Of a stretch of DNA of 64,000 nucleotides, positions 1-16,883 are shown piece by piece (within the stretch, counting starts at the first letter, position 1; the number at the start of each line of letters is the position of its first letter). The position numbers were made by a program, and so were the translations under genes. Location: positions 1 through 64,000 of the IMG/VR virus record IMGVR_UViG_3300033407_000004. The stretch is one strand, 5' to 3'. The stretch comes from a virus. Lineage: Duplodnaviria; Caudoviricetes. The notes beneath the pieces were generated by a model. It was not told the origin of the DNA, did not search any database, and saw nothing but the letters and a program-made list of their open reading frames with translations.

Positions 1-1236
1 TTCCCCTTCGTCTCTATTCCCTTGATACCAAAAACTGTCATTTGCCGTTAAGGATATCACTGAAAGACCCGTGTAGTTTGATCCAATAAATGAATTAATA
101 AATTTGATTTTTGGTTGATAGGAACCTATCAAAAAAAACTTATCAGTATTATATGCGTTCCCGGCGAGTCTAAAGTTGTCAACTACATTCATGCTTGTAT
201 TCCCCGACCCAAACTTGATGACACAGTTGTCAGCGTTAGAAATTATGTTTATATTTTCGGCCCAATTACCTTCAAACCTTGTCGAGTCCCCTTGCTCTAT
301 GTCTGCAACAATGTTGTCTAGTGTCTCAAAATCATTGTAGTTAAACGCATTATTATACCCATGACCGCGAATCATAATCGCGGGAGCAGTCATACGATAA
401 AATTTATTGAATTGTATGAGGTTCTGATTCGCCGCAGTATCGAAATAAATCCCAGTTTCCATTTTTTGATTTGACGGGTAATACCCGAACGAATTGTTCT
501 CTATAAGGCTTAGAATAAAGTATCCTTGCAGCCCGTACTTGCTAGGGCCTTCAAAGTTGCAGTCGCGAATTGCAAAATGTCCCGCGGAATTGCCGTCGGT
601 ATTAATGGCGGCAAAGGACGAAGTCGTAGAAAATCCCAAGCCAGCGAGCGTTACGTACTCACGGCTTGCGGTAAGTTTTATAATATCCGACGTGCTACTT
701 GTGAGGCGCGAACTTTTTCCGCCGCTCCCTATATATGTAATAGAACTACGCGGATTCCATTCGTTCAATATATAGTCTCCATCATGGATATAAACTGTTG
801 ATCCAGTATTTACTGCTGCCTGAGCAGATTCAAAAGCGTCGGTATCATCTCCGTCTCCAGTCCCCCACCATTCCGGCCTTGCCTCAGTCAGGCCAGTTAC
901 ATAACCCGCTCCGCACGTCGAATCAAAGACCTGTGAGTTTCCAGCAGTCATGTTGCTGATTGACATCGTATAACTGCCACATGAAATAAGTCCGCCTTGC
1001 CATGTATAAGGCACGGTCATTGTCAGCGAAGAGGTAAGCGCCTTGTCTGCATCCCCTATCAGCACACCGCCAGTGACCGCCGCTGCCGCCGCATGAGCGG
1101 CATTGAGAGAGGCATAGCCAGAGGTGAATACTGCGGTGTTTAGGCGCTTTGTTGTTACTTGAGATACCGGGAGGGTTGCCGCATGGCCCGTGCTGGCAAG
1201 CAGGGTAAACAGAATGGCGATGATGTACTTTAACAT
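1..1236 (-). CDS. Partial (runs off left edge) tailspike-like right-handed beta-helix protein with N-terminal signal peptide
   Basis: Not in ORF track; translated by hand: AGGAG RBS, ATG at 1236, MLKYIIAILFTLLASTGHAA..., tailspike-like 'PEWWGTGDGDDTDAFESAQAAVNTGSTVYIHDGDY', open to base 1. Confidence 0.75.
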   Translation of the reverse strand, partial: MLKYIIAILFTLLASTGHAATLPVSQVTTKRLNTAVFTSGYASLNAAHAAAAAVTGGVLIGDADKALTSSLTMTVPYTWQGGLISCGSYTMSISNMTAGNSQVFDSTCGAGYVTGLTEARPEWWGTGDGDDTDAFESAQAAVNTGSTVYIHDGDYILNEWNPRSSITYIGSGGKSSRLTSSTSDIIKLTASREYVTLAGLGFSTTSSFAAINTDGNSAGHFAIRDCNFEGPSKYGLQGYFILSLIENNSFGYYPSNQKMETGIYFDTAANQNLIQFNKFYRMTAPAIMIRGHGYNNAFNYNDFETLDNIVADIEQGDSTRFEGNWAENINIISNADNCVIKFGSGNTSMNVVDNFRLAGNAYNTDKFFLIGSYQPKIKFINSFIGSNYTGLSVISLTANDSFWYQGNRDEGE

Positions 1237-1245
1237 GAGGTCTCC

Positions 1246-1842
1246 TTAACAGCTTTCAATGGTAGTCAACTTCTGAATATTCCGATACCGGCGCTCTACG
1301 TCATCGGCTCTTTTCTTTCCCCACTCGGTCTGGTTGAGCTTGAAGCCAAGGATCATAACCGGGGTGACGGGCTCTTTGATCCCCTTCAGGTACTGGTAGA
1401 GTTTCCCGCCCCGGCTGAACCTCATCTGATTCTCGTAGTCGGCGATATGAACGAACGTTTCGAGCTTCGAGAAGTCAACGTTGATCTCCTCGCAGAGCTT
1501 CAGTGACCAATAGATGCAGTCGTCAAGCTGCCGTCGGTCCCATTCATCCACAATCCCCGAGTGAGCCCGGAGCTTGGTATCCATGGCCTTCATGTCTGCG
1601 TCTTGGCGCTTGAGAGCGGCGACTTCGTCGGTGGTGAAGCTCATTTCCCGAAGAGCGGAAAGAGCGTTTGCGTTGAAATTTATGTCGTACTGGCAAATTC
1701 CGAAAGACCAGCCTGAACGCCCGTTCTTCCCGTCGGGATCGGAAAACTTGTAAGCATGGCTCTCGTTTCCTGAGCACTCGTTTTCAAGGATTATGAGCCT
1801 GAACAGCTTCTGCAGTTCTTCGCAAACATGGTTGATTTTCAC
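1246..1842 (-). CDS. Putative endolysin (lysozyme-like fold suspected)
   Basis: 198 aa; 'ILENECSG...GRSGWSFGICQYD' resembles the Glu plus beta-hairpin signature of lysozyme-like muramidases; next to holin-like genes. Confidence 0.45.
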   Translation of the reverse strand: MKINHVCEELQKLFRLIILENECSGNESHAYKFSDPDGKNGRSGWSFGICQYDINFNANALSALREMSFTTDEVAALKRQDADMKAMDTKLRAHSGIVDEWDRRQLDDCIYWSLKLCEEINVDFSKLETFVHIADYENQMRFSRGGKLYQYLKGIKEPVTPVMILGFKLNQTEWGKKRADDVERRYRNIQKLTTIESC

Positions 1843-2141
1843 GGTTCAAACTCCTTTCGTCTATGCTGTATCGACTCAATTACCATGGCGAGCATTCCTT
1901 TTATCTCCGCAAATTTCGCGTCTCTCAGCTCCCCGCACGTATCGCACTTGTCCCGGTAAACCACAAGCTCCGAATGCTTCTCATGAGCGGATTCTATGCG
2001 CTTGACGGATGCGTCTATGTTTTTGATGAAATCAGCGATTTTTTGATCTTGCACAGAGACCCTTTCTCTAAGCCCAAAGAATGCAGCGAGTCCCCCTAAG
2101 AGCGCCCCAATTAAACCCGTCCCCGCCGATTCTAAGTCCAT
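1839..2141 (-). CDS. Putative holin / membrane protein
   Basis: N-terminal TM (GLIGALLGGLAAFFGL) followed by coiled coil; overlaps the putative endolysin start by 4 bp. Confidence 0.45.
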   Translation of the reverse strand: MDLESAGTGLIGALLGGLAAFFGLRERVSVQDQKIADFIKNIDASVKRIESAHEKHSELVVYRDKCDTCGELRDAKFAEIKGMLAMVIESIQHRRKEFEP

Positions 2142-2654
2142 TCACCATACCCCCTCATAGATGATTTCCATGTCTTTATAGTGTTCGATGATTTCCGCGA
2201 TATCGTCAGGGTTCTGCCCGGAAATACATGATACTGCCGGATACCCTGCCCCTCGCATGAACTCGGCTACCAGTTCGCTGCAAACTGTATCCTTCGTGCT
2301 CCGGGCGTACTTCGCGGCAAAGGGAATGATGAAAAGTGGAAGCCGCCAGAAGGGATAGATGCGCCCGATGTTGTCGGATACGGCATCCATGCCTTTCCAG
2401 AAGGCATCATTTGTCATCCCCGACCAGCGCCCGATCAACACCCTGTCGCCCTTGTAGTCGTCGATATGTCCGGCCTTGATCCTCCAAAGCGACTCAAGGG
2501 TAATGCCTTCTGTTTCGGTGATGATCCCGGCGTGAGAGTAATCAGCGTCATTGTCCTTCGACCAGAGCTTTTCAACCGCCATGATTGCACGGCCAAGAGC
2601 CATGGGATTTGTGCTAGTGAATATATCGCCTCGTTTTAGCTTGACTTTTTCCAT
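2142..2654 (-). CDS. Permuted papain-like (YiiX/YaeF, permuted NlpC/P60) amidase
   Basis: GDI near N-terminus, 'YSHAGII' His precedes 'CSELVAE' Cys. Confidence 0.75.
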   Translation of the reverse strand: MEKVKLKRGDIFTSTNPMALGRAIMAVEKLWSKDNDADYSHAGIITETEGITLESLWRIKAGHIDDYKGDRVLIGRWSGMTNDAFWKGMDAVSDNIGRIYPFWRLPLFIIPFAAKYARSTKDTVCSELVAEFMRGAGYPAVSCISGQNPDDIAEIIEHYKDMEIIYEGVW

Positions 2655-2662
2655 TTGTCCCC

Positions 2663-2860
2663 CTATATCGGCCCCTTAGCCTCTCTGCGTCCGTGAATAC
2701 CATGCACGGCCCCGCCTGAAATAAGTGAGGCTTCAAGGTACTGGATCGCCCCTTTGTACTCTGGATAGGCTTCTTCAAAAAACCGGAGAAGCGCACCGGC
2801 TACGGTGATGAGTATCCCCTGAATGGTCTTTGAAGCAAGCAGCATTCCGATATAAGACAT
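2663..2860 (-). CDS. Small membrane protein (holin-like)
   Basis: MSYIGMLLASKTIQGILITVAG..., hydrophobic helices, in lysis cluster; start reassigned to ATG 2860. Confidence 0.45.
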   Translation of the reverse strand: MSYIGMLLASKTIQGILITVAGALLRFFEEAYPEYKGAIQYLEASLISGGAVHGIHGRREAKGPI

Positions 2861-2874
2861 GTCGATCCCCTTTC

Positions 2875-3123
2875 TCACCTGCATTTAATCTCGCACATTA
2901 TCTTCTGTATCTCAAGCAACGAGTCTTCAGAGGCAATAATGCTGTCCTTTTCTTCATCGGTTAAGCCTTGCGCATTCCTTACTCTGTCATGCTCCTCAAG
3001 GTGGAAGTCCACCGCTTGCACCATGCAATCGCTCATGCAGCGAGCAGAACAGCCGGAGAGCAGGAGTATCGCCGCCAAAAAGAGTGCGTACACGCTGTAC
3101 GCCTTCAGGTCTTGCTTGTCCAT
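2875..3123 (-). CDS. Lipoprotein (possible spanin component)
   Basis: Lipobox LLLSG-C; GAGGGG RBS before ATG 3123; in lysis cluster. Confidence 0.5.
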   Translation of the reverse strand: MDKQDLKAYSVYALFLAAILLLSGCSARCMSDCMVQAVDFHLEEHDRVRNAQGLTDEEKDSIIASEDSLLEIQKIMCEIKCR

Positions 3124-3212
3124 AACCCCCTCAATTAACCGAGACGCTTCCTCCAACAATCTCCAAGCTCCCGCCTACCATCGAAAACCCACCATCAGCG
3201 GTCGGAACAGCC

Positions 3213-5753
3213 CTACCGTATATTGCTCACTGACGACGGATACCACTGAACTGACTGCGTGCTTACGTTCCCCGCAGAGTCCTTAACCGCAAACCAGAGA
3301 GTCTTGCGTCCGTAGGGGTTGCTTGTCGAGGCGCAATACTGCGCCGGTGATGTACCCCATCCCGCGTCACCTGCTACCGGAGCTTCGTCCTGGTCGATTA
3401 CCATATAGGTCATTGAGGTTGAATCGGTCGCTGTCAACGTGATAGGTGTACACCTGCCAAAACTCGCGGCGGTGTGAGATGCTACGGTGATAACCGGGGC
3501 AGAGCCGCCTGTTTCCTCAGCAAGAGTTGGGTAACAATAGGCTACTCTTGCCCCTATCTCACGCCCATTAAGTTCCACGGTGTTTGTTCCTGCCGACAAA
3601 ATAAAGATACCTGGATTTTCTTCAGGGTATTCTATTGACCCAAGACCGCGAATGGAAATATCAGCCTCACGCCATTCGTTATATCCAATGCCAAACCTAT
3701 TAAAATCCCATATTTCATCATCAGCCCCATTAACTGATACCAGCATGGAATCGTCACCAGTAGACGTGGCGTAAACACCGCAAGAGATTTTATACCCACC
3801 AGTCTCGGCAATCTCAAATGAAATAGTTGCCGAGCCCGAATTTGTGGCTGTGGTGGCAACATAGTAGTCACCGGGGGCTACCCCAGGATCATTTGTCAGG
3901 GCCATTGGATCAGCAAGTGTAAATTCATCTGCCGTGACAACTCCTGCAGGAGGGGGCGTATAGTTATTGTCAACTGTCACCGTTATCGTAGTCGAGGTGG
4001 CAAGGTTCCCTGAAGTGTCTCTTGCTACGGCTGCCAGCGTATAGGTCCCATCGGAAACAAGCAGCGTGTTCCATACTATTGAATATGGGGATACAATGTC
4101 CTCCGCCCCTTGATTTACGCCGTTTACTTTCAATTGCACACCCAACATCCCACCGGTATCTGTGGCTGACGAGGAGATCGTCACGTCGCCTGTGACTGTG
4201 GCCCCAGTGGCTGGTGAGGATATCGACACATCAGGGGGAGTCGTATCTGATGATTCTGTTTGCAATTCATATGCACCCATATCCCAGAGTGCCCGTGTGT
4301 AGCCATCCTTATCCGTAGTGAATACGGAAGAGAGATCAATGCCGCCATCCTTTGCAGGTGAAGGAGTTGAGGCGGTTAAATCAAATCCTGCTGTACTTGT
4401 GGTACTTGAAAACAAAGGGTCGCCATATCCGCCGTGAACTTCTTTTCCATTCCCCTGCACAGTTGAAAAGCTACGGCTTGTTTCCCAAATTCTGGTAGAC
4501 CACCTATAATAGTTATAATCTAATGGAGTCGCTGTATAAATATAATCAGCACCTTTGATATGCCCCCAATCTGTCCATCCTCCAGAACCGCAAGGAGAAG
4601 CGTTCGACGGCCATAATATATTATTTTTGATATAAATATTGCTATAGCCGCCCCCGCCACTTTGATTAAAGAAAATACTTTTATAGTAACCATAAAACGT
4701 ATTATTATACACGTAAAGGTTTGAAATAGTAGTACCATACGTCATCAATGACAACATTCCCGACGCGCCACAATTAGTTGACCCGCTGTCTTTAATGGGC
4801 GAGTAAAACAGGTTGTTGTATATCGTATTGTTGGTCGGTGATCTTACTGCTGGATTTTCAGTGTGAATGAATAGCAATTGGTTATTGCCATGATACGTTC
4901 CCTCAAATGTATTATTATAAATTTTGTTTTCATTCCCACTAATATGCAAGGCATCCGATGATCCCCATGCAGTGCTCCAGCCTGTGTAGAAATGATTATC
5001 ATATATATCAAAGTTGCTAAGAACTCCCGTCACAATATCTGTAGCTGCGTGGTTCTCGCTCCAACCGGGATCATGCAAATAACTATCATGAATAGAAGAT
5101 CGTCCATAGGTTGTACCCCCACTATAATTGTTAATAACGATATTCCCATCAGAGTCGTGCCCAGTATTGTAACCATTTTTATATATTTCGCAGCTTGCAA
5201 TCTCCACTCCGTCTGTATTTGCTAACAGAATGCCAGTGTAATACATATCATGAATCGTTACGTTTTGAATAATAATTTTCGCGTTGCTTCCCGTGGTAGT
5301 TCCATATATACCACGATTTGGCCTTCTCGAACCGTTGCCATAGATTGTGAAATTCTCCCGGCTGACGCCATCTATAGTAATAAAATTTCTGCCCGTAACT
5401 GTGAATGTATTTGTCCCACTCGCGGAGTTAATCGTTACGGCCCCATCGTAGCCGCCTGCCCATCCTGTTTCTGACCCGTGCTCTGATGTAGTCGCTCTTT
5501 TTATTGTGATTTGGCTTCCATTCGTCCCCGAGGAAGTGAACGTATAAGTGCCAGTATAGTCTCCTGCTGCTATATAGACAGTATCCCCTGCGCCTATCCC
5601 TGTAATATTGTTTATGTCATCCCAGGAATTCGACCAGCTTGTTCCATTGCCAGCACCGCCCCCCTTGCGAACATGATAGTTGGTTGCATTCGCATCGGTA
5701 GCAGCAATGATGATGAAAATAGCGGCTATTATGGCCAATAATGACTTTCTCAT
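3213..5753 (-). CDS. Signal-peptide-bearing beta-helix (pectin-lyase-like) protein with Ig-like domain and C-terminal beta-sandwich
   Basis: MRKSLLAIIAAIFIIIAATDANA; 'YVRKGGGAGNGTSWSNSW' start, Asn-rich parallel beta-helix repeats, 'WDMGAYE', Ig-like 'DTTPPDVSISSP...AVARDTSGNLATS'. Confidence 0.75.
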   Translation of the reverse strand: MRKSLLAIIAAIFIIIAATDANATNYHVRKGGGAGNGTSWSNSWDDINNITGIGAGDTVYIAAGDYTGTYTFTSSGTNGSQITIKRATTSEHGSETGWAGGYDGAVTINSASGTNTFTVTGRNFITIDGVSRENFTIYGNGSRRPNRGIYGTTTGSNAKIIIQNVTIHDMYYTGILLANTDGVEIASCEIYKNGYNTGHDSDGNIVINNYSGGTTYGRSSIHDSYLHDPGWSENHAATDIVTGVLSNFDIYDNHFYTGWSTAWGSSDALHISGNENKIYNNTFEGTYHGNNQLLFIHTENPAVRSPTNNTIYNNLFYSPIKDSGSTNCGASGMLSLMTYGTTISNLYVYNNTFYGYYKSIFFNQSGGGGYSNIYIKNNILWPSNASPCGSGGWTDWGHIKGADYIYTATPLDYNYYRWSTRIWETSRSFSTVQGNGKEVHGGYGDPLFSSTTSTAGFDLTASTPSPAKDGGIDLSSVFTTDKDGYTRALWDMGAYELQTESSDTTPPDVSISSPATGATVTGDVTISSSATDTGGMLGVQLKVNGVNQGAEDIVSPYSIVWNTLLVSDGTYTLAAVARDTSGNLATSTTITVTVDNNYTPPPAGVVTADEFTLADPMALTNDPGVAPGDYYVATTATNSGSATISFEIAETGGYKISCGVYATSTGDDSMLVSVNGADDEIWDFNRFGIGYNEWREADISIRGLGSIEYPEENPGIFILSAGTNTVELNGREIGARVAYCYPTLAEETGGSAPVITVASHTAASFGRCTPITLTATDSTSMTYMVIDQDEAPVAGDAGWGTSPAQYCASTSNPYGRKTLWFAVKDSAGNVSTQSVQWYPSSVSNIR

Positions 5754-5771
5754 TTATCTTTATCCTCCAAT

Positions 5772-6323
5772 TTAAGGTACAATATATACATATGCTGAGT
5801 GTTTCCGGCTTCGCAATGTCCAGGACGACCCCATGTCGGCTGGTTCATCATAATATGACGTGCCTGTATATGCTCCGCCTGAAATTGCGTCATACTTGGC
5901 GGACCAGCCCGTTCCGCTATCGTATCCTACGGCTATCCAGTAAGAGCTGCCTTGCGAAATTGTTCCAGATCCGAATGTGTTAGATTTCCAGCCAGTTGAA
6001 GCACCACTGGCAATGACAACACTACATGCCACAAGGGTGTCCGATGCTTCCCTAACACCATCTCCATCGTCAAGATATACGCAGAGCTTTCCGTTGTCGT
6101 TTTCCGAGTTATTATGGTACAAATATGCCGTTGTTAGGTTGCCAGAACAGCCTGCTGTAAAAAGAAACGACTCAGACACGCCGAGTGCCGTTCCACTTCC
6201 GCCTATCGTCTCATACCCCATATTGCAGGTAGCCGCCGCTTTCTTCTTCCCAATCAGCATTTCCTGCCCGATTGCATGGCTGCTCATTACCAGCAACAGG
6301 AGTATCGATATGATCGTCCTCAT
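5772..6323 (-). CDS. Hypothetical signal-peptide protein (beta-sandwich-like)
   Basis: MRTIISILLLLVMSSHAIG; tightly packed in operon. Confidence 0.6.
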   Translation of the reverse strand: MRTIISILLLLVMSSHAIGQEMLIGKKKAAATCNMGYETIGGSGTALGVSESFLFTAGCSGNLTTAYLYHNNSENDNGKLCVYLDDGDGVREASDTLVACSVVIASGASTGWKSNTFGSGTISQGSSYWIAVGYDSGTGWSAKYDAISGGAYTGTSYYDEPADMGSSWTLRSRKHSAYVYIVP

Positions 6324-7289: not shown

Positions 7290-7299
7290 AGAACCCCCT

Positions 7300-8034: not shown

Positions 8035-8037
8035 ATC

Positions 8038-8529: not shown

Positions 8530-8541
8530 TGTTTTCTCCTT

Positions 8542-11500
8542 TTATAATTTCGGCTCTACTGCGAAATGACGCAGCTTGAACGTCTGCCCGCTGGCATAGC
8601 ATTTTGCCTTGAATTGGATGGTTTTATCCGTTGAAAAATTTTCCGTCCATGCGTTATACACGACGAACGGCCCTGCAAGCCCGTCGATAAAGACCCGCGT
8701 TACTACCCATTGAGCGGTGGCAGAGCGGAATAATACCTCTGTTTCCATCCACCATCCGTCGTTGGAATCATACCCGGCCGGGATAGTGACCGCTGTTTGG
8801 CCGGATCCTAAACGAAGTTCTATGTTGAACTGGCCGCTTCCGACAAGCTGCCCGCCCGCAGTGATTCGTATGCCACGCCCGACCTGATGGTCCGCCGCCA
8901 GCAAATCGTGAGTCAACATCGTCGTTGTCGTAGCTCCATACGTGGCGTAATCCACTTCTGCCGTGCCGGTAGTGCCCGACCACATATAGCGCATTGATCC
9001 GTAATTTTCAGAAGCGTCGGCTATGTCATCCTCGATGGAGCTGACGGTCCCGGTTGTCGTGTTGTTCAGCGTATCGTAAATATTCCAGCCGAGATGAGCG
9101 CTGGAGGCATTTTCTATCGTAATGTCGTAATCCGCGTTGCCCTGCGCCGTTATTCCGTCTATCATGATGCGGGTGTTGTCGTTGGTCCCCGGCACATTAT
9201 TTTTTACGCATATCCCCGACGATCCGGTTGTCGAGCTGGTTATTCCCGTATCTGTCGAAACGCCGTTATTGTTGAAGACTCCGCCGGAAATAGTGATATC
9301 CTCGCAGCCGTTTAAAACCATCACGCCGCAGCCGTCGTTCCCGCTGGCATTTACCCCGCTCAGAGTAATGCGCGCCAGGTCAACGAGCCTGATCCCGTCC
9401 AGTGCCCCCGCGACCGAAAGCCCGGACGTATCACCTGCTGAATTGGCATTTAGAAACTGTCCGCCATTGATACTGCTGTCCGCCCAGTCTCCTGCCACCG
9501 GCACGATGTTTCCGTTCAGGTTTTCGGACCCGTAACAGCTGTTCAGCCGGTGTTTTGACCCCGAGAGGCGCCACCCGGCTTTTTTGCTGCCGATAGAAAC
9601 TGTGCTGTCAAATACAGCCCCGTCAGCGGTTACTGCTATGTTGCTGCCTCTGGTATCGGTAGATCCGAGACCGTTGTCTTTATACAAGCCGCCGATAAAA
9701 TGAATCCCGTCATTGTCGCCCGACACCGCGCTGTTATTGATATGTACGCCATGCCCATCCACATCGTGCACATACAATTGATCAAACGTGGCGTTGGTTA
9801 GCCGCAAACCATATATCCCATTGTTCGCGACACTGAGACCCGGCGCCCCGGAGTATGTCTGATTCGTTTTGTTCCCGTCTATAGCGATGTTTCGGAACGT
9901 AATGTTTGAGTTTCCATTTGTCGTGTCGGAATTAACAAACAGATTCGTATCGAGATTTGCTTTTTTCTTAAATGTCGCGCCCCACTGGGTTGGCGATTCG
10001 ATGGTGCAGTCCGAGTAATACGTGAGCGAGCCCGTGACCCAGGTGCCTAATTCCGCGATGAGCGTTGCGCCGGGGTTGGTGTCGCACTCATTGAGCCAGT
10101 TTTGTACCTCGGTCGTATATTCAACTGACCCGTCGGCCACATACCCGTCCGGCAGGTAGTCCGTAAGGTAGTATGTTTTTTTTGTGAGCTTTTTGTATCC
10201 CGATGCGGAGAGGTAGCCGGCGATGGTTGCGGTGGCGGCAGAGATGGTGACGGTGCCACCTGCTTCGGAGAGCGGGGCGCTGAATGTGTAGGTCGTGCCC
10301 GCGCCGGTCGAATCCGTGACGCAGGAGAACAGGCCGGTATTGGAATTGTAGGCGTTGACGACTTCCCCTGCTCCGCAGGTACTCGTTATTGCGGATACGG
10401 GGGTGCCCGTGAGGGCGCTGTACGGAATATTGATCAGCTGCGATCCGTCGCCATCCGGCGCAAGGTAATCCACCCCCGCAGTAAGCGCACCCTGCTTCGA
10501 GTTAAACGCATCATAGTCTTCCGCCGCCAGATACCCGTCAACGGTAGTTGACGCTCTGCTTATTGACAGTTCCGGGGTCGTTCCGCCGGAGGATGCAAGT
10601 GGTGAGGTTGCAGTTACGTCTGAAACTGTTCCTCCACTTATATTCTCATCAACATACGCCTTTGAGGCAAGCACTCTCATTGTCGTACCGGTGCCATAGG
10701 AAAATTCATCGGTATCTGTTTTCAGGTACAACTGACCAGTCCCCGTAGCGTCACTGGCAACCCCTGAAGGTGCATACAGCTCGTCAACATTCAGCGCGTT
10801 TGACCATACCAGCGCACCGTCAATTGCGAATGGCATGTATGTTCCAGAAGCGTCTGTTACAGTCAACGCTGATGCAAGTGCTGCGTCAAGGCCTACGACA
10901 CGTGCAGACGGAAGAGTGCCGGTTGTATCTGCATCAATATCAGGAGTGCAATCCCCCGTTGTGCAGGTGCCTACACTTGTGATGTCACCAGCGCCACCCG
11001 GAGTGTCGCACGACCCGTCATCCTTGAGGTAGCCAGAACATGTTCCTGATCCGAACAGTGCCACAACGTCACTTGACGCAGCGCTGCCGAGATTGTCTCC
11101 AGCACCCGCCCCGATAGAATCGGTTCCGCACGTAACGATGCCAGTCTCTAAATCAACCTCTTGGATATACTCACCGGTTGCGCATGTATAAGACGGCTTG
11201 CTGGTAACGTCTCCCCATGCAGGAGCATAGGCGATAGCTTTATACAGTGCATCGGCGGTTGCTTGGTCAAGTTTGGCATTCCATGCCGATGACGATTCTA
11301 TTTGCGCATCCGTCGCGCTACCGGAGATGTCGCTGAAAAGGGATGGAATGGTCGGCTTGTTAAGGATCTGCGAGAGCCCAGATGCTGAATCCCAATCGGC
11401 GTTTTCCGGTGCAGTGATCGTCGGCTTGCTTAACAGGTCATCATAGCTGCCTGTAGTTGCGACTGTTGCTAGTCCGGTAATGGAGTCAGTAGAAATACTG

Positions 11501-11982
11501 GTTATCGCGTCCTGCTTGGCGGTCCATGTTGATTTTTCGGTATCGGTGACGACTCTATGAGTGCTGTCGTCGGTGAGATCGGAGAGGGCATTAGGAATCG
11601 TGGGGGTGCCTGTTAATTTTGAGTATGCAAACGCGGTCAACCATGCAGGGTCTTCATAGCTTCCGGTAGTCACGACTCCATCTGTCACCGTGGCGGCATT
11701 GCCTGAAATATCAATCGCTGCCGTACCCGAGGCTATTTTGGAAGTCTGTAGGCTCCCGGTTGTTCCCGTGGAGAGGTTTACCTGACCTTCGATCGTTCCG
11801 GTAAGTTCAGAACAAACACCGTCTGCTCGCATAAATGTCGTATCATCACATGTCCCCGTCCACTGGCTGATTACGTCGGAGGAGGAAGAAAGTGAACCGC
11901 CGCCGCTTGACGCTGTAAACGCCCTCACGATTCCCGCGCAGGCCAGAATGAGAATTACCGAAAGGATTAATTTCTTGAACAT
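8542..11982 (-). CDS. Long tail fiber/tailspike: signal peptide, fiber repeats, C-terminal beta-helix
   Basis: Start reassigned to ATG 11982 (MFKKLILSVILILACAGIVRA); repeats YSKLTGTPTIP / YDDLLSKPTI / ILNKPTIP / WGDVTSKP; 'NITFRNIAIDGNK' beta-helix. Confidence 0.75.
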   Translation of the reverse strand: MFKKLILSVILILACAGIVRAFTASSGGGSLSSSSDVISQWTGTCDDTTFMRADGVCSELTGTIEGQVNLSTGTTGSLQTSKIASGTAAIDISGNAATVTDGVVTTGSYEDPAWLTAFAYSKLTGTPTIPNALSDLTDDSTHRVVTDTEKSTWTAKQDAITSISTDSITGLATVATTGSYDDLLSKPTITAPENADWDSASGLSQILNKPTIPSLFSDISGSATDAQIESSSAWNAKLDQATADALYKAIAYAPAWGDVTSKPSYTCATGEYIQEVDLETGIVTCGTDSIGAGAGDNLGSAASSDVVALFGSGTCSGYLKDDGSCDTPGGAGDITSVGTCTTGDCTPDIDADTTGTLPSARVVGLDAALASALTVTDASGTYMPFAIDGALVWSNALNVDELYAPSGVASDATGTGQLYLKTDTDEFSYGTGTTMRVLASKAYVDENISGGTVSDVTATSPLASSGGTTPELSISRASTTVDGYLAAEDYDAFNSKQGALTAGVDYLAPDGDGSQLINIPYSALTGTPVSAITSTCGAGEVVNAYNSNTGLFSCVTDSTGAGTTYTFSAPLSEAGGTVTISAATATIAGYLSASGYKKLTKKTYYLTDYLPDGYVADGSVEYTTEVQNWLNECDTNPGATLIAELGTWVTGSLTYYSDCTIESPTQWGATFKKKANLDTNLFVNSDTTNGNSNITFRNIAIDGNKTNQTYSGAPGLSVANNGIYGLRLTNATFDQLYVHDVDGHGVHINNSAVSGDNDGIHFIGGLYKDNGLGSTDTRGSNIAVTADGAVFDSTVSIGSKKAGWRLSGSKHRLNSCYGSENLNGNIVPVAGDWADSSINGGQFLNANSAGDTSGLSVAGALDGIRLVDLARITLSGVNASGNDGCGVMVLNGCEDITISGGVFNNNGVSTDTGITSSTTGSSGICVKNNVPGTNDNTRIMIDGITAQGNADYDITIENASSAHLGWNIYDTLNNTTTGTVSSIEDDIADASENYGSMRYMWSGTTGTAEVDYATYGATTTTMLTHDLLAADHQVGRGIRITAGGQLVGSGQFNIELRLGSGQTAVTIPAGYDSNDGWWMETEVLFRSATAQWVVTRVFIDGLAGPFVVYNAWTENFSTDKTIQFKAKCYASGQTFKLRHFAVEPKL

Positions 11983-13146
11983 CCCCACGGCTAAAGCCGA
12001 GGAATTCCAGATGCGATTCATATTCTAACCTCGCGTTCGAGGGCGATTCCCGCCCCGGCAATAAGCGTGTTCATGGCCGCATTGCAATCGCGGTCATGAG
12101 CGGTTCCACAAACCGTGCACGTCCATTGCCTTACCGCAAGCCCACTCAGTCCTTTGGGGCCGGATAACACCCCGCAAGATGAACAGGTCATGGTGGAAAA
12201 CCTTGAGGGAACTTCAACGAATCTCCTACCGCATTGACTGCTCTTGTAGGAAATAAACTGTCTGAGTTGCCCTGTAGCTGCCGATGATACCGATTTACCA
12301 AACTTCTTTGACATGCCCTTAAGGTTATCTTTTGAGAAACAGATCAATTCGTTTTCTGATACAAGGCGGCGAGAAAGTTTGTGATTGCGGTCCTTGCGCT
12401 GGTTCGCCATTTTCTCTTGAAGACGTGCTGTGAGCTTTTTGTCGTGGCCCCTTTGTGATTGCGCGAGACGTAACGCGCCCCCTTGAAGTTCCTTTGGATG
12501 CTCGATCTTTTCTCCGGTCGAAAGCGTAAGAAGCGTCTTAAACCCAGGGTCGATGCCAACCTGAGCGTTGCCAGTGATTGTGATTTCGTTCGGCGCTGCG
12601 TCTATAAATAAGCAAAGATGCCAACCAGAAGATCTCTTTACGATCCTGCCGCACTTGATCTTCTCGGCAGGCAATTCCTGTTTGTAAAAACGCACGGGGC
12701 CAAGTCCCGGAACGCTGATTCGGTTCTTCTTAGGTGGGCGAATCGGATCGGGGAATGGTATTGAGTTGAGTTTGTTTCTCTGTCCCTTTAGGTGCGGTTT
12801 CTTGCCGATCTTTTTGAAACATCGTTTCCATGCCGAGTGCGCATTTGATAAAATGCCCTGAATCGTATGGCTCGGAATGTCCAGCTTCTTCCCATGATCC
12901 GCAAGAATGTTTTGGAAATCCTTCGGCGTGTAATAAATCCCGTCCTTCGCGTCAAGTTCGATCTTGCGAACAGCCCAATTCCACACACCCGTTAGGTTAT
13001 TGAGCCATACCGCAAGGGTTGCTTCTTGTGCTTTGGTCAGTTTGAGTTTTAATTGTCGTTGAACCATAATGTACTTGCTCTCCTTTCGGGTAGAGAAAAA
13101 TGAACAAAAAAGTGACTAAGAAACCGCCTGCTTTAGCTGGCGGTAG
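11975..13146 (-). mobile_element. IS200/IS605-family TnpB-only element 1
   Basis: Right end GGAATTCCTCGGCTTTAGCCGTGGGGATGTTCAA (GAAT, hairpin, TCAA); left end hairpin CCGCCAGCTAAAGCAGGCGG after TGAT; no tnpA; left boundary inferred. Confidence 0.75.
12018..13067 (-). CDS. tnpB: TnpB-family RNA-guided endonuclease, divergent RuvC-II
   Basis: VGIDPG (RuvC-I), CSSCG...CTVCG Zn ribbon, HDRDCNAAMN (RuvC-III); usual ED motif reads FSKDNL. Confidence 0.85.
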   Translation of the reverse strand: MVQRQLKLKLTKAQEATLAVWLNNLTGVWNWAVRKIELDAKDGIYYTPKDFQNILADHGKKLDIPSHTIQGILSNAHSAWKRCFKKIGKKPHLKGQRNKLNSIPFPDPIRPPKKNRISVPGLGPVRFYKQELPAEKIKCGRIVKRSSGWHLCLFIDAAPNEITITGNAQVGIDPGFKTLLTLSTGEKIEHPKELQGGALRLAQSQRGHDKKLTARLQEKMANQRKDRNHKLSRRLVSENELICFSKDNLKGMSKKFGKSVSSAATGQLRQFISYKSSQCGRRFVEVPSRFSTMTCSSCGVLSGPKGLSGLAVRQWTCTVCGTAHDRDCNAAMNTLIAGAGIALEREVRI

Positions 13147-13147
13147 A

Positions 13148-13474
13148 TCACCAACATGTCCCGGTGATTGTCCCGGTCGTACTCGATCGTATCGCCTTAA
13201 ATCCGTCCACCTCTGACTTGTTGTCCAGCGTCAACGGGAAGTTGGAAGACGATAAGCTATGCCCCACGCTGCTCGTCGGCGCCGTCCCGTCCAGCCACAT
13301 TCGGACACCGGCCCCCTCGTAGGTGAGTAGGCACTTATTCGGGCTGAAACTGGAGGTAATCCACGAGGGGATGCCGACCGCCGTATCAGCCACGGTGAGC
13401 GTGAATTTGACTGCGGCCTGAGCAGTAACGGCCATGAGTGCGAGAAGCAGGGAGATGAGGATAAGCTTTTTCAT
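13148..13474 (-). CDS. Small signal-peptide hypothetical protein
   Basis: MKKLILISLLLALMAVTAQA; AAGGAG RBS. Confidence 0.65.
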   Translation of the reverse strand: MKKLILISLLLALMAVTAQAAVKFTLTVADTAVGIPSWITSSFSPNKCLLTYEGAGVRMWLDGTAPTSSVGHSLSSSNFPLTLDNKSEVDGFKAIRSSTTGTITGTCW

Positions 13475-13506
13475 TGTAGTTCTCCTTTCGGGGAGTGAAA
13501 TTGAAC

Positions 13507-13630
13507 AAAAAAAATGGCCGAAGATTAAATCTCTCCGGCCCTAATACAGGCGTAATGTTGCTCGCTATTCAGTTTTCAAACAAAAAAAGGGCCACAGATT
13601 TTTTCATTCTGCGGCCCTCGCGACAGGCGT
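13507..13630 (-). terminator. Tandem intrinsic terminators with boxA-like element (TTTGAAAACTGAATAG at 13565-13580)
   Basis: Two GC stems each followed by 7-8 T on the - strand, each preceded by ACGCCTGT. Confidence 0.7.
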
Positions 13631-13680
13631 AATACGGCTACAAATTAGCGGCAAGAGGGCTGTCTCCTTTTAGGTGACAG

Positions 13681-14958
13681 GTGAATTGCCGCATTCCGCA
13701 AAGCGGGATTAGTTCTTTGTTGACTCCTACGATAAACTATGATAAATTGTAAGCATGTTGGTCAATAAAGCATACAGCTTTCGATTGTATCCGACTCAGA
13801 GCCAAGCCGAATTGCTTGCGCAGCATTTCGGCTGCTGCCGTTTCACCTACAACCACTTTCTTCGTGAACGCATTGACTACTACGCCGCGAACAAGGGGAA
13901 AAAGAAGCAGGGTTTGACGTACCACGATACGACCAAGATTCTGACTGTCCTTAAAAATACTCCAGAGCATGTCTGGCTGAATGCCGTAAACTCTCAAGCC
14001 CTTCAACAATCCCTTCGTCGCCTCGATGTGGCGTACAACAACTTTTTTAATAAACGAGCGAAGTTCCCTAAGTTCAAAAGCAAACATGATAAGCAGTCGT
14101 TTCTGGTGCCTCAAGGATTTAAAATTGACGCTGAAAGCTGTTTTTTGCGTATCCCTAAATTTCAACCAATCAAAGCTGTCTTTCACCGCCCCATCGAAGG
14201 CGAGATGAAGAGCGTCACTATCTCTAAAACTACGACCGGGAAATACTTTGCCTCTGTCCTGTGTGAAGTCGAACAGAAAGTCAAGTCGAAGAAGACCGGC
14301 AAACAGATCGGTATTGACCTTGGCCTCAAGTCGTTTATCGTGACCTCTGCCGGCGAGACGGCAGAAGCGCCGAAGTTTCTCCGTAAGTCCGAAGACCACT
14401 TGAAGTTCTTTCAGCGTCGCCTTTCCCGCAAGGTGAAGGGAAGCGCGAACCGAAACAAGGCGCGTCACAAGGTTGCGCTGATTCATGAGAAGATTGCGAA
14501 CCAAAGAAAAGATTTTATTCACAAATTGAGTGCCCGACTGGTAAGCGAAAACCAAGCTATCTTTGCCGAGGACTTGAATGTGAAGGGCATGACGGCGAAC
14601 CACTGCATTGCGAAGTCTGTTTCCGATGCAGGGTGGTCGGAGTTTATTCGCCAACTTAAGTACAAATCTGAATGGAGCGGTACCACGTTCGGGCAGATCG
14701 ACAGATTCATTCCATCTTCCAAGCGTCACGTCACCTGCGGCTGGATAAACCAGTCGCTTACGCTGAAGGACCGGGAGTGGACCTGCCAGGGTTGCGGTGA
14801 AGTTGTTGACCGTGATTGGAATGCTGCTCAAAATATTCTCCTGTTCGGAACAATTCAAATAGCGTCGGATCGACGCGAATCAACGCTTAGTGAGAAGCGG
14901 CGTATTAAAGCCCTTCATTGACCTAAGAAGCCGCCTGCTTTAGATGGCGGTAGATCAC
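13681..14958 (+). mobile_element. IS200/IS605-family (IS1341-like) TnpB-only element 2
   Basis: Right end GAAGCCGCCTGCTTTAGATGGCGGTAGATCAC; left hairpin near 13689-13708; left boundary approximate. Confidence 0.75.
13755..14921 (+). CDS. tnpB: TnpB RNA-guided endonuclease with canonical D-E-D triad
   Basis: KAYSFRLYPTQSQ N-terminal HTH, IGIDLG, AEDLNVKGM, Zn ribbon, DRDWNAAQNI. Confidence 0.95.
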   Translation: MLVNKAYSFRLYPTQSQAELLAQHFGCCRFTYNHFLRERIDYYAANKGKKKQGLTYHDTTKILTVLKNTPEHVWLNAVNSQALQQSLRRLDVAYNNFFNKRAKFPKFKSKHDKQSFLVPQGFKIDAESCFLRIPKFQPIKAVFHRPIEGEMKSVTISKTTTGKYFASVLCEVEQKVKSKKTGKQIGIDLGLKSFIVTSAGETAEAPKFLRKSEDHLKFFQRRLSRKVKGSANRNKARHKVALIHEKIANQRKDFIHKLSARLVSENQAIFAEDLNVKGMTANHCIAKSVSDAGWSEFIRQLKYKSEWSGTTFGQIDRFIPSSKRHVTCGWINQSLTLKDREWTCQGCGEVVDRDWNAAQNILLFGTIQIASDRRESTLSEKRRIKALH

Positions 14959-15094
14959 GATATTCAGTTGTTTCAGCTTGTCAAGAGTTTATCATTTTGG
15001 GCCTTGCTTTGCAACATAAATTTCTGTATACTTGCCCCATGCGAATTCTCCCCCTTCTCCTTGTGCTGGCGGTGTGTGGGGTGTAAGAATCTCT

Positions 15095-15610
15095 TTATAG
15101 CTCTGCCTCTAGTGACAGCTTAAGCGCTTTTAATTTCACCCAATCCCAATCACATTCTTGGGCATGGGATACCAAGCCAGTGCGCATATCCAAGATAGGT
15201 GAAAAAGCTTTGTGGTTGTGTTCAGCATCTCCGTTGTACAGCGGGTCTCCAAGCAAAACTATGTGAACCGTTTCGTGGGAAACCGTATCATTGTATAGCG
15301 AATCCTCAGACACATATATTTCTCCGTTCCACATGCAGCCTTTTCTTTTCTTTTTCCCGCATATAAATTCTCCCTGCTGCATAACATGTATAGTTACTGA
15401 TTTACCATCATCGTCGTACCCATATAATCGGTTCATGCAAGATTTAGTTTCTCTTACATTGGTGTCCACTTCGGCTAATTCAACAGAACTTATTTGATAA
15501 AGCTCCGTTCCTATTATCTTAGAATCAATATTGTTAGCCCCACAGCCGTAACTTACAAAACATACCAAACATGCAAGGGATACTTTAAGCATTTTATTGA
15601 GCCACCACAA
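15095..15610 (-). CDS. Putative lipoprotein with HExxH zinc-metalloprotease motif
   Basis: Lipobox-like VSYG-C; 'VSHETVH'. Confidence 0.55.
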   Translation of the reverse strand: MWWLNKMLKVSLACLVCFVSYGCGANNIDSKIIGTELYQISSVELAEVDTNVRETKSCMNRLYGYDDDGKSVTIHVMQQGEFICGKKKRKGCMWNGEIYVSEDSLYNDTVSHETVHIVLLGDPLYNGDAEHNHKAFSPILDMRTGLVSHAQECDWDWVKLKALKLSLEAEL

Positions 15611-16883
15611 TTATCCGCCATGTTTGCGAACTGAAAGTATACCCATTCGCGTTTGCATTTGCCAGATGTATCATGACCGTATTTGTGGCCGAGACGGTAG
15701 CGTAAGCATTTACAAAATATGCCGCTAAATTATTGTGCGGAGGGGTAATTATAACATTGTCTCCAACTTGCGCACCAGTAACAGTTAAAGTGGTCTCGGC
15801 GCCGCTCCCGGCATTGATCGTACCTGGAGCCCATACCACGCTTCCGAAATAAACAGCTTTACCACTGATTTGCGTAGCAGATGTTGCAGTGGCTGAATTT
15901 CCCGTACAAGATCCAGAACTACCGGAAGCATTGCCGGTGACGTTGCCGGTCAGCGTCGCCGTAATCGTCCCCGCCGCAAAGTCCCCAGACGGATTTCTTG
16001 CGACAATTGTTTCCCCCGCATTTGACGATGCAGCATTCATCCCATCCAGTTTATCCGCATCCAGTCCTGACCCTGAGCCTGCGCCGGTTATGGTTGTTGA
16101 CGGAAGGGAGACGGGGCCGGTGAATACTGCTGTACCAGTCACATTTTGCGTCCCGCTCAATGTATTCGTACCGCTGCTGCTAATCGTCCCCGTTAGAGTC
16201 AAATACGCCGAGCTTGTGCCGCTGGTGAGCATGTCGGCGGAGAGGGCGGAGCCGGTAACTTTCATGATCGATACGTTTACATCCGTCCCGGTAGTGGCTG
16301 CGTCCAGTGATCCAGAGTCAAGGGAGACCGTGACCGTAGTCGTCCCGGAAGCGTATGCCGAAGCAGTAACGCGCCCATAGACCGCGTTCCCGGTGATCGT
16401 CGCCTTGATGCGCATACCGACAGGGTAAATGTCCGTGTAGTCGCCGGTCACGGAGAACTGCGTTGCGCTGATGTAGGTGGATAATGCGCCCGCTGCGATC
16501 CATGGGCCGGTGGTGAGGTCTTCGGGGGTTGTGAAGGGCATCGAAGAGACGTTATCGGAAGTCCATATCGCAGTGCCAGTACTACAATTGGTCTGATTGG
16601 CGGCCATCAGCTTTACCTTGACCGGGCCTGTTATCCAGATCGGCGATTCTCCCCGACTGTTCAGCGTTACAGACGTTCCGAGTGCGGTAGTCGCGGAAGC
16701 ATCCGTGTACACTGCCTTTGGAGTGCTCGAATTTACCTCGAAAAAACAGACCTTGCACCCGTTGCAAGGACGACCTGCCGAGTCGTCGAAATGGGAAATA
16801 GGGGGTGGCAGGACGCTTGCTGTTCCAAAGGCATTGCTTGCAAACAACATTGTGAGCATGAGCACTGAAGCGATTTTCTTCAT
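15594..16883 (-). CDS. Tail fiber/spike with podophage head-binding-like N-domain, preceded by signal peptide
   Basis: AAGGAG RBS, ATG 16883, MKKIASVLMLTMLFASNAFG; 'FDDSAGRP...KV...TPKAVYTD...VTLNSRGESPIW' matches the N-terminal attachment domain of podophage fibers. Confidence 0.7.
   Translation of the reverse strand: MKKIASVLMLTMLFASNAFGTASVLPPPISHFDDSAGRPCNGCKVCFFEVNSSTPKAVYTDASATTALGTSVTLNSRGESPIWITGPVKVKLMAANQTNCSTGTAIWTSDNVSSMPFTTPEDLTTGPWIAAGALSTYISATQFSVTGDYTDIYPVGMRIKATITGNAVYGRVTASAYASGTTTVTVSLDSGSLDAATTGTDVNVSIMKVTGSALSADMLTSGTSSAYLTLTGTISSSGTNTLSGTQNVTGTAVFTGPVSLPSTTITGAGSGSGLDADKLDGMNAASSNAGETIVARNPSGDFAAGTITATLTGNVTGNASGSSGSCTGNSATATSATQISGKAVYFGSVVWAPGTINAGSGAETTLTVTGAQVGDNVIITPPHNNLAAYFVNAYATVSATNTVMIHLANANANGYTFSSQTWRIIVVAQ

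What the first reader, a model, noticed from the sequence alone, without database searches (positions are those of the whole stretch)
1..16883. Tail-appendage module built from Sec-signal-peptide, Cys-paired proteins
Seen: nine - strand genes here (1-1236, 3213, 5772, 6324, 7300, 8038, 8542, 13148, 15594), plus 31627-32154 in the head module, start with basic + hydrophobic + small-residue cleavage-type N-termini (MKKLIL..., MRKSLL..., MKKIAS...). Several also carry closely spaced Cys pairs (TCDDTTFMRADGVC, TCATGEY..VTC, TCGAGEV..FSC, ECNGDGDSC, SCEGT..ATC). They include clear tail-fiber/tailspike-type folds. Knowledge: tailed-phage virion proteins normally fold and assemble in the reducing cytoplasm without signal peptides. 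Inference: this phage may export its appendages to the periplasm for oxidative folding and add them to particles after inner-membrane rupture, or display them on the lysogen surface. Either would be an unusual morphogenesis route.
Basis: partly seen in the sequence, partly recalled or inferred. Interest (0 to 1): 0.85.

Follow-up and report, generated by a model that had tools for sequence, protein, structure and literature searches.

The report
Phage tailspike and fibres with export signals
An uncultured P22-like phage puts ordinary bacterial secretion signals, plus extra cysteine pairs, on its tailspike and on almost every other host-recognition protein, which suggests these parts mature in the periplasm and not in the cytoplasm where tailed-phage particles are built.

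Summary
In this 76-kb P22-like podovirus contig, ten genes start with a Sec-type signal: basic residues, a hydrophobic stretch, then small residues. Nine lie at 1-16883 and one at 31627-32154. Most of these starts have a strong Shine-Dalgarno site. One uniform rule flags 7 of 14 ORFs here, 3 of 66 in the rest of the genome and 19 of 927 in 79 other phage loci.

The gene at the tailspike position (15594-16883) has a P22/Pam1/Pan3-type head-binding domain right after the predicted cleavage site. All 26-31 deposited phages with this domain lack the signal. About 21% of the nearest 149 metagenomic homologues have it. A CxxC pair in the domain's first hairpin occurs only in signal-bearing members.

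The module is mixed. The 846-aa beta-helix enzyme has no head-binding domain and belongs to a family in which all 27 relatives carry the signal. It and several neighbours have low GC and look acquired. Two TnpB elements and lysis-type genes also sit here.

Export is likely. Joining the particle at lysis is inferred, not shown. No trained signal-peptide predictor was available.

This scan has noted the same pattern on at least eight other genomes. I found no published description.

The parts
15594..16883 (-). Tailspike/fibre (429 aa). It has a 20-aa Sec-type signal (MKKIASVLMLTMLFASNAFG), a P22-type head-binding domain with PCNGCKVC, fibre repeats and a small beta tip.
   Evidence: SD-backed start. 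Residues 28-199 match tailspike N-termini of related podophages that start about 20 aa later. Profile hits 7eeq and 9vyg at E 1e-13. The model folds like Pan3, Pam1 and P22 head-binding domains.
31627..32154 (-). Small protein (175 aa) in the head-tail connector region. It has a signal peptide, then a head-binding-like domain, and two Cys near the C-terminus.
   Evidence: SD-backed start. The HMM of the tailspike N-domain matches residues 23-130 at E 1e-8. Cys at 154 and 173.
15095..15592 (-). Lipobox protein (VSYGC) with an HExxH motif and 41% GC.
   Evidence: Sequence, GC, no family hit.
13755..14921 (+). TnpB of an IS200/IS605-type element. It is an insertion, not part of the module.
   Evidence: Pfam OrfB_IS605, HTH_OrfB and Cas12f1-like_TNB.
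13148..13474 (-). Small signal-peptide protein (108 aa, 2 Cys). It was originally translationally coupled to the long fibre gene.
   Evidence: Removing 11975-13146 restores the TGATG overlap.
11975..13146 (-). IS element with TnpB (12018-13067), inserted at the start codon of the long fibre gene.
   Evidence: Pfam and PHROG transposase hits. Junction check. Best relative is 86% identical, in a Nitrospirae MAG.
8542..11982 (-). Long fibre (1146 aa). It has a signal peptide, phage fibre repeats carrying inserted Cys pairs, and a C-terminal half with beta-helix-type repeats. The mature protein has 17 Cys.
   Evidence: The repeats are shared with phage tail fibres. The Cys pairs sit at positions that are Cys-free in signal-less fibres. 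The beta-helix reading rests on sequence only.
8038..8529 (-). Small Cys-rich protein (163 aa, 6 Cys) with a signal peptide or signal anchor.
   Evidence: No family hit.
7300..8034 (-). Signal-peptide protein with a concanavalin-A-like (Laminin_G_3) lectin or glucanase domain. 46% GC.
   Evidence: Pfam PF13385 at E 2.5e-8. GC.
6324..7289 (-). Signal-peptide protein (321 aa, 6 Cys including ECNGDGDSC) with a T/S/G-rich N-terminal half. Its fibre-like look is my reading only.
   Evidence: No family hit.
5772..6323 (-). Small signal-peptide protein (183 aa, 4 Cys).
   Evidence: No family hit.
3213..5753 (-). Secreted-type beta-helix glycan-degrading enzyme (846 aa). The signal is followed directly by the beta-helix, then a Big_7 Ig domain and further beta domains. 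It has no head-binding domain. 46% GC.
   Evidence: Pfam Big_7. All 27 homologues carry a signal directly before the helix, and the best are 43% identical in Patescibacteria-labelled MAGs. The model matches GH136, PL6 and pectate lyases and phage tailspike depolymerases. GC.
1246..3123 (-). Probable lysis cassette (inferred). It comprises a lipobox protein 2875-3123 (o-spanin candidate), a small membrane protein 2663-2884 (holin-like), 2142-2654, an N-terminal TM plus coiled coil at 1839-2141 (i-spanin candidate), and 1246-1842.
   Evidence: Sequence features only. No Pfam or PHROG hit.
1..1236 (-). Signal-peptide beta-helix protein (at least 412 aa; it runs into the contig end). It has a pectate-lyase-type N-terminal motif. 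45% GC.
   Evidence: The nearest language-model clusters carry Beta_helix or Pect-lyase_RHGA_epim, which is a lead only. GC.

Best explanation
The window is the late region of a P22-like podovirus. Its host-recognition set is routed to the host Sec pathway.

Shown: the tailspike, a second small protein with the same docking domain, a long fibre, and several lectin-like or glycan-degrading proteins each begin with a type-I signal peptide. The tailspike's mature N-terminus falls where signal-less tailspikes of relatives and of solved structures begin. Signal-bearing members of this domain family, and only they, carry a CxxC in the first hairpin. The fibre has Cys pairs placed into repeat motifs that are Cys-free elsewhere.

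Inferred: the proteins are exported unfolded by Sec and cleaved by signal peptidase I. They then fold, trimerise and form disulfides in the periplasm.

Also inferred: DNA-filled particles that lack spikes meet them when the holin opens the inner membrane, just before or during lysis. Tailspike addition is the last step of P22 assembly and works in vitro (my knowledge). So this order of events is mechanically possible.

The beta-helix enzymes without a docking domain are more likely free periplasmic or lysis-released enzymes acquired from bacteria.
For: Signals and starts. Enrichment: 7 of 14 against 3 of 66 and 19 of 927.

Phage type: P22 portal at E 6e-79; P22-type coat, Hc3 and ejection protein.

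Tailspike identity:
- Homology to tailspike N-termini that lie directly after the ejection genes and start about 20 residues later.
- Profile hits to Pam1 7eeq (E 1.4e-13) and Pan3 9vyg, whose chains start at residue 2.
- Fold hits to the Pan3, Pam1 and P22 head-binding domains.

Recurrence of the signal:
- 31 of the 149 nearest representatives of 5078 hits.
- 3 clear cases in 80 IMG/VR loci.
- 4 of 26 in JGI metagenomes.
- 0 of 26-31 deposited phages.
- The signal state needs at least 4-11 changes on the domain tree.

CxxC: 14 of 31 signal-bearing against 0 of 118 signal-less. In the metagenome set it is 4 of 4 against 0 of 22. In L180 and L199 the CxxC is the protein's only Cys pair.

Other phages repeat the layout of ejection genes followed by signal-bearing, Cys-rich spikes: L077, L068, L055, L199 and L180.

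Several of those signals have Gln straight after a small residue at the likely cleavage site. That matches the Bacteroidetes Q-rule for exported proteins (PMC10653852).

Every large candidate receptor-binding protein in this genome carries a signal.
Against: - No experiment and no trained predictor. Export, cleavage, disulfides and the timing of assembly are all inferred.
- The CxxC association is partly one clade: 12 of the 15 cases, counting the window's own protein, sit in a 13-row group. Phylogenetically independent pairs give 2-4 in the same direction and 0 opposite, with p at least 0.125.
- An even Cys count is not significant.
- 17 of 31 signal-bearing homologues have no CxxC.
- The 846-aa enzyme and probably 1-1236 have no docking domain. 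They look like acquired bacterial secreted enzymes, so a large part of the block may never be on the virion.
- A small signal-less protein (30347-30886) has a weak head-binding-like motif at E 0.02. It could be a cytoplasmic tail part.
- The host is unknown. A diderm envelope is inferred only from spanin-like genes that have no family hit.
- Later checks of sister findings in this scan priced the particle-joins-at-lysis reading near 10%.
Confidence: 0.45

Rival explanations
1. The signal-bearing proteins are exported but are not the virion's own parts. They would be accessory enzymes and lectins that remodel or strip the host's surface glycans from the periplasm. That would give superinfection exclusion and stop progeny sticking to debris. 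Alternatively they are released at lysis as free depolymerases. The particle would get its receptor binder from a non-exported fraction or from a signal-less protein.
For: The 846-aa enzyme has no docking domain. All 27 of its relatives are secreted-type proteins, the best ones in bacterial MAGs. Low GC in 3213, 7300, 1-1236, 5772 and 15095 suggests acquisition. 7300-8034 is a lectin-like domain. A sister finding read a similar cassette this way (e1-3283919). Matrishin 2023 reads signal-bearing phage genes as host-envelope modifiers (PMC10367356). L199 has a 740-aa signal-less protein after its signal-bearing spike.
Against: The protein with the canonical head-binding domain at the canonical position carries the signal. 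No signal-less protein of tailspike size exists in the 76-kb contig. In L180 the signal-bearing spike is the only large ORF after the ejection gene in the stretch held. A docking domain has no obvious use on a protein that never meets the particle.
Confidence: 0.3
2. The hydrophobic N-termini are not cleaved export signals. They would be membrane tethers or structural helices, and the spikes would be assembled onto particles on the cytoplasmic side in the usual way.
For: The model shows a helix at residues 2-15. 8038-8529 has an anchor-length core. No predictor or experiment was available.
Against: The n-h-c layout with small residues at -3/-1 is seen in nearly all ten. Homologues and solved tailspikes do without the segment. 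The segment has been gained or lost many times while the domain start stays fixed. Bacteroidota-type members have Gln after a small residue at the likely cleavage site, which matters only after cleavage outside the cytoplasm. Cysteines track the segment.
Confidence: 0.1
3. Artefact: wrong start codons or a chance run of hydrophobic N-termini.
For: In two other loci (L066, L105) my rule flagged upstream in-frame extensions that are probably not real starts.
Against: Most of the starts have a strong Shine-Dalgarno site, and no better start lies downstream. Enrichment is p 1e-4 to 1.6e-8. The same layout recurs in independent contigs.
Confidence: 0.02

Closest known systems
Podovirus tailspikes with an N-terminal head-binding domain: P22 gp9 (2vnl, 2vky, 9jg6), cyanophage Pam1 (7eeq), cyanopodophage Pan3 (9vyg, 9vyh), and the tailspikes of Pseudoalteromonas H6/1, Shewanella X14 and Xanthomonas PBR31
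   Same: Same docking domain by profile and fold. Same place at the start of the mature protein. Same gene position after the ejection genes of a P22-like head and tail hub.
   Different: Those proteins start at the domain and have no signal peptide. They have PLxGG where this one has PCxGC.
Secreted bacterial beta-helix proteins. NCBI labels the MAG homologues 'choice-of-anchor Q' or 'fibronectin type III domain-containing'. A characterised example is Pantoea stewartii WceF, a tailspike-fold biofilm glycan enzyme (PMC7949094).
   Same: 3213-5753 shares 31-50% identity with this family, and every member has the signal directly before the helix. For WceF, one search gave only the title and the start of the abstract: a bacterial glycan enzyme with a bacteriophage tailspike-like fold. 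The paper also mentions a signal peptide, but I did not read that passage.
   Different: Here the gene sits in a phage late operon next to the lysis genes. Its substrate is unknown.
Sec-exported phage lysis proteins: SAR endolysins, the secreted endolysin of oenophage fOg44, and spanins (from my own knowledge)
   Same: These are phage late proteins that use the host Sec system and wait in the envelope until the holin fires.
   Different: They are lysis enzymes, not virion parts. No docking domain is involved.
Signal-peptide genes of Porphyromonas phages (Matrishin et al. 2023, PMC10367356)
   Same: Phage genes with signal peptides that obey the host's Q-rule. The authors take them as adapted to the host secretion system.
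   Different: That paper reports them on capsid proteins, spanins and genes of unknown function. It reads them as host-envelope modifiers and does not mention tail spikes or fibres.
Virion proteins of non-tailed phages that carry signal peptides, such as filamentous phage pIII and pVIII (from my own knowledge)
   Same: Virion proteins that are exported by Sec and assembled outside the cytoplasm.
   Different: Those phages assemble at the membrane by extrusion. This is a lytic-type tailed phage with a cytoplasmic capsid pathway.

Membership tests
P22/Pam1-type tailspike head-binding domain | Sequence-profile similarity to solved head-binding domains | tested here: met
   Profile A2 against the PDB: 7eeq_A at E 1.4e-13, 9vyg and 9vyh at E about 1e-12. 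The single sequence gives E 0.04.
P22/Pam1-type tailspike head-binding domain | Fold of the domain | tested here: met
   AF2 model residues 30-115 at pLDDT 77-92. Top Foldseek hits are 9vyg, 7eeq, 9jg6, 2vnl and 2vky at probability 1.00, TM to target 0.47-0.66.
P22/Pam1-type tailspike head-binding domain | Domain lies at the N-terminus of the (mature) tailspike, and the gene follows the ejection genes | tested here: met
   Homologue residues 7-14 align with residues 28-34 here, an offset of 20-21 that equals the signal length. PDB chains match from residue 2. The gene follows the 2566-aa internal protein, with a 1-kb + strand ORF in between.
P22/Pam1-type tailspike head-binding domain | Trimer that binds the tail hub of the particle | not tested
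   No complex prediction or experiment was run.
Sec-dependent type I signal peptide | Positively charged n-region, 7-15 residue uncharged hydrophobic core, and a c-region with small residues at -3/-1 | tested here: met
   Met for nine of ten by inspection and a simple rule. 8038-8529 has an anchor-length core.
Sec-dependent type I signal peptide | Call by a trained predictor (SignalP, DeepTMHMM) | not testable with these tools
   No such tool was on hand.
Sec-dependent type I signal peptide | Export and cleavage shown experimentally | not testable with these tools
   The contig is metagenomic and has no isolate.
Right-handed beta-helix polysaccharide-degrading enzymes (for 3213-5753) | Beta-helix fold | tested here: met
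   Model strands span residues 25-380. Foldseek hits GH136, PL6, Pel9A and phage tailspike depolymerases at E 1e-6 to 1e-4. PF13229 is recorded on homologues P0093 and P0100.
Right-handed beta-helix polysaccharide-degrading enzymes (for 3213-5753) | Catalytic residues and substrate | not tested
   TM scores are low (0.2-0.4). No active-site mapping was done.
Virion tailspike (for 3213-5753 and 1-1236) | A particle-docking or adaptor domain ahead of the beta-helix | tested here: not met
   The beta-helix starts within a few residues of the cleavage site in 3213-5753 and in all 27 relatives. The head-binding HMM finds nothing in either protein.

The most novel reading that the evidence does not exclude
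A widespread, repeatedly evolved class of tailed phages exports its tailspikes through Sec and disulfide-bonds them in the periplasm. The spikes then attach to spike-less, DNA-filled particles only when the holin opens the inner membrane. On this reading the last step of tailed-phage morphogenesis happens outside the cytoplasm, and the exported spikes may also strip the receptor from the dying cell.
Probability: 0.3. Interest if true: 0.85.

Novelty: new variant of a known kind. Interest (0 to 1): 0.68.

Why it matters
Textbook assembly of tailed phages is wholly cytoplasmic. A canonical head-binding tailspike behind a secretion signal does not fit that picture. The signal recurs in about a fifth of the nearest relatives and comes with cysteines that appear only alongside it.

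If the spikes do mature in the periplasm, several things follow:
- The order of assembly would be different from the textbook one.
- Phage fitness would depend on the host Sec and Dsb systems.
- Spike activity inside the envelope could explain superinfection exclusion.
- Anyone expressing such receptor-binding proteins or depolymerases for biotechnology would need an oxidising compartment and would have to remove the signal.

The idea can be tested directly with reporter fusions and virion mass spectrometry.

Tried and rejected
- Close relatives of the phage: none in the deposited phages. None in IMG/VR with the tailspike or the Hc3 protein as query. Only a 94% identical 2.7-kb fragment turned up in metagenomes (L135).
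I could not see the 62-91 kb contigs that hold the homologues of the 846-aa enzyme, so I cannot say whether they are phages or bacteria.
- Host: the TnpB best hit is 86% identical in a Nitrospirae MAG, and the others are about 65% across many phyla. This does not settle the host. The Patescibacteria labels on the enzyme homologues may come from binning.
- PHROGs and Pfam gave nothing for the small signal-bearing proteins or for the lysis-type genes.
- None of the small proteins has a relative in the roughly 180 viral and metagenome loci fetched, or among each other.
- Scans with P0066 and P0082 returned only fibre-repeat matches.
- Six literature searches found no paper on signal peptides on tailed-phage spikes or fibres.
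- An even Cys count as a disulfide test was not significant, so I dropped it.
- A dual-start reading (internal Met giving a signal-less isoform): I saw no Shine-Dalgarno-like motif in the bases ahead of Met9 of the tailspike (by eye). I did not pursue it.
- Complex prediction was not used. A pass would rest on likeness to solved tail complexes and would say nothing about export.

Full report
WHAT THE WINDOW IS

The window is the first 64 kb of a single 76,133-bp virus contig (one search says it is a virus record). It is a P22-like podovirus. The evidence is a P22 portal (PF16510, E 6e-79), a P22-type coat, a scaffold, Hc3 and Ad3 connector proteins, an ejection protein and a 2566-aa internal protein. 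There is no near relative among deposited phages or in IMG/VR.

Late genes run on the minus strand in this order: portal, scaffold, coat, connector, ejection proteins, then the block in question, then lysis-type genes, then one more beta-helix gene that runs into the contig end.

THE OBSERVATION

They have the three-part layout of type-I signal peptides. Seven of the ten starts have a clear Shine-Dalgarno site a few to about ten bases upstream, like the coat and scaffold genes. The other three (8034, 11982, 6323) have weaker ones.

Under one automatic rule, 7 of 14 ORFs of 100 aa or more in 1-16900 are flagged. The figure is 3 of 66 in the rest of the genome and 19 of 927 in 79 other phage loci (p 1e-4 and 1.6e-8).

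The long fibre gene starts at 11982. An IS with TnpB (11975-13146) sits exactly on its former TGATG start, and removing it restores MKLILSVIL. This confirms the sister note e1-5981727.

The quoted Cys pairs exist. The mature signal-bearing proteins hold 1.5% Cys against 0.5% in thirteen signal-less structural proteins. The three ejection proteins have no Cys in 3315 residues.

THE KEY GENE

15594-16883 lies where P22-like phages keep the tailspike. Its residues 28-199 match the N-termini of the proteins that directly follow the ejection genes in related podophages. These include the annotated tailspikes of Pseudoalteromonas H6/1 and Shewanella X14 and the unnamed protein at that position in Vibrio phage 41E34.2. 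In H6/1 and 41E34.2 the homologue begins 20-21 residues later, so it has no signal.

A profile of the nearest homologues hits the solved 'tailspike head-binding domain' of cyanophage Pam1 (7eeq, E 1.4e-13) and the Pan3 tail spike (9vyg, 9vyh). Those chains match from residue 2, which corresponds to about residue 22 here.

An AlphaFold model built on a 20-sequence alignment gives a helix for the signal and two confident beta domains at 30-115 and 128-205. Its best PDB matches are the Pan3, Pam1 and P22 head-binding domains. The predicted mature N-terminus (TASVLPPP...) falls just where ordinary tailspikes start.

An HMM of this domain also finds it behind the signal of 31627-32154 (E 1e-8). It finds it nowhere else with confidence.

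IS IT ONLY THIS PHAGE?

No. An exhaustive HMMER search with residues 1-195 found 5078 relatives. Of the best 149, 31 carry an N-terminal hydrophobic extension of the same kind, and 118 start at the domain.

- Among 80 IMG/VR loci, three are clear cases.
- Among 26 distinct N-termini from JGI metagenomes, four are.
- All 26-31 deposited phages with the domain lack it.

On a tree of the domain the signal state needs at least 11 changes, or 4-6 on well-supported branches, so it has been gained or lost repeatedly.

In L077, L068, L055, L199 and L180 the signal-bearing spike again follows the ejection or connector genes. In L077 three of the four large downstream proteins carry signals and hold 12-19 Cys each. 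Three further IMG/VR contigs found through the beta-helix enzyme (L052-L054) show runs of two to four signal-bearing ORFs just after the head genes.

CYSTEINES

Signal-less domains read G-x-P-L-x-G-G at the first hairpin. 14 of 31 signal-bearing ones read P-C-x-x-C, against 0 of 118 signal-less ones (Fisher p 1.6e-11). In the metagenome set the split is 4 of 4 against 0 of 22. In L180 and L199 this CxxC is the protein's only Cys pair.

Relatedness inflates the p value. Twelve of the fifteen cases (counting the window's own protein) sit in one 13-row clade. Independent contrasts give 2-4 pairs in the same direction and none opposite, with p at least 0.125. The direction is consistent but not yet statistically secure.

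In the long fibre, Cys pairs sit inside standard fibre motifs (the GDGTW-type and the VxSVNGxTGxVxL-type). Those positions are Cys-free in the signal-less fibres that align there. Only 8 of 119 proteins sharing these fibre repeats have a signal at all.

THE BLOCK IS MIXED

3213-5753 is a beta-helix enzyme. Its model matches GH136, PL6 and pectate lyases and phage depolymerases. It also has a Big_7 domain. The helix starts right after the signal, with no docking domain.

All 27 of its relatives have the same layout. The best are 43% identical and labelled Patescibacteria MAG proteins.

This gene, 7300-8034 (Laminin_G_3), 5772-6323, 1-1236 and the lipoprotein have 41-49% GC. The core genes and the tailspike, the long fibre, 8038, 13148 and 31627 have 54-58%. 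So part of the block looks acquired and secreted-type, and part looks native.

Two TnpB elements interrupt the region, as does a + strand ORF with an HNH-like motif that I saw by eye.

MECHANISM

Export of these proteins is the straightforward reading, and I put it near 0.7.

For the tailspike, export means it cannot meet the particle in the cytoplasm. No signal-less protein of tailspike size exists in the contig. The most economical model is therefore periplasmic folding, with disulfides, and attachment to spike-less particles once the holin opens the inner membrane. From my own knowledge, P22 heads without spikes are stable and accept purified spikes in vitro, and canonical holin lesions are large enough for capsids to pass. 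So the route is feasible.

None of this is shown here. My confidence in the whole chain is 0.45, and 0.3 for the strong general form.

The main rival, at 0.3, is that the exported pool acts on the host envelope or is released as free enzyme, while the particle uses something else. This fits the docking-domain-less enzymes well and the tailspike poorly.

KNOWN WORK

Six full-text searches found no report of signal peptides on tailed-phage spikes or fibres. [quoted passage not shown]

The nearest work in print is Matrishin et al. 2023. It reports signal peptides that obey the Bacteroidetes Q-rule on Porphyromonas phage genes of unknown function, read as host-envelope modifiers.

Several signal-bearing homologues found here also have Gln straight after a small residue at the likely cleavage site. 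That fits the Q-rule paper (PMC10653852) and points to real cleavage in Bacteroidota hosts.

This scan has already noted the same phenomenon on at least eight other genomes. Later checks there kept the observation but priced the strong reading near 10%. I take that as a caution, not as evidence.

VERDICT

- This is a new variant of a known kind: a canonical head-binding tailspike with a secretion signal and a matching cysteine signature.
- It is interesting and directly testable, but it is not unique to this window and it is not proven.

Noticed in passing
window 17897-27872 (- strand); also L055, L068, L077, L180, L199: The three ejection/internal proteins (2566, 353 and 396 aa) hold no cysteine in 3315 residues. 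The ejection-like ORFs next to signal-bearing spikes in five other contigs are also Cys-free, while the neighbouring spikes are Cys-rich.
   Followed up: partly
window 17003-17845 (+): A 280-aa + strand ORF lies between the giant internal-protein gene and the tailspike gene. It has an HNH-like motif (DRINNDGNYEPGNCRW...) seen by eye, with no Pfam or PHROG hit. It is probably a homing endonuclease. The overlapping - strand ORF 16970-17830 looks spurious.
   Followed up: partly
window 11975-13146 and 13755-14921: Two different TnpB (IS200/IS605-type) elements lie in the fibre region. The first sits on the fibre gene's start codon, and its end supplies a new start (MFKK...). Removing it restores a TGATG overlap with 13148-13474. 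The best TnpB relative is 86% identical in a Nitrospirae MAG.
   Followed up: yes
window 15095-15592 (-): A lipobox protein (VSYGC) with an HExxH motif (HETVH) and only 41% GC lies just after the tailspike gene. It may be an exclusion lipoprotein or a metallopeptidase.
   Followed up: no
window 1-3 and contig end 76131-76133: If the contig is circular, the ORF at 1-1236 would stop at once, because a TAG spans the junction. The gene would then be complete at 412 aa. There is no terminal repeat to prove circularity.
   Followed up: partly
window 32151-33401 (-): A protein lying between the coat and connector genes matches PHROG families annotated as glycosyltransferase and as DNA methyltransferase, and Pfam Methyltransf_24. 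It sits next to the signal-bearing 31627-32154. Its role is unknown.
   Followed up: no
window 49505-49867 (-): An early-region ORF of 120 aa also has a signal-like N-terminus (…FVIVAFLISTAAA|QEKC). It lies in the stretch that other first-stage notes describe as attC-like cassettes.
   Followed up: no
L135 (Ga0214471_10076572, 2742 bp): A metagenome fragment encodes residues 85-328 of the tailspike at 94% identity. It is the only close relative of this phage that I found anywhere.
   Followed up: no
L136 and L142 (Ga0196981_1000110, 83.6 kb): One metagenome contig was returned at two places about 38 kb apart (ranges 22907-43404 and 61203-81700), each with a head-binding-domain match at 44% identity. 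The copy I examined (L142) has no signal.
   Followed up: no
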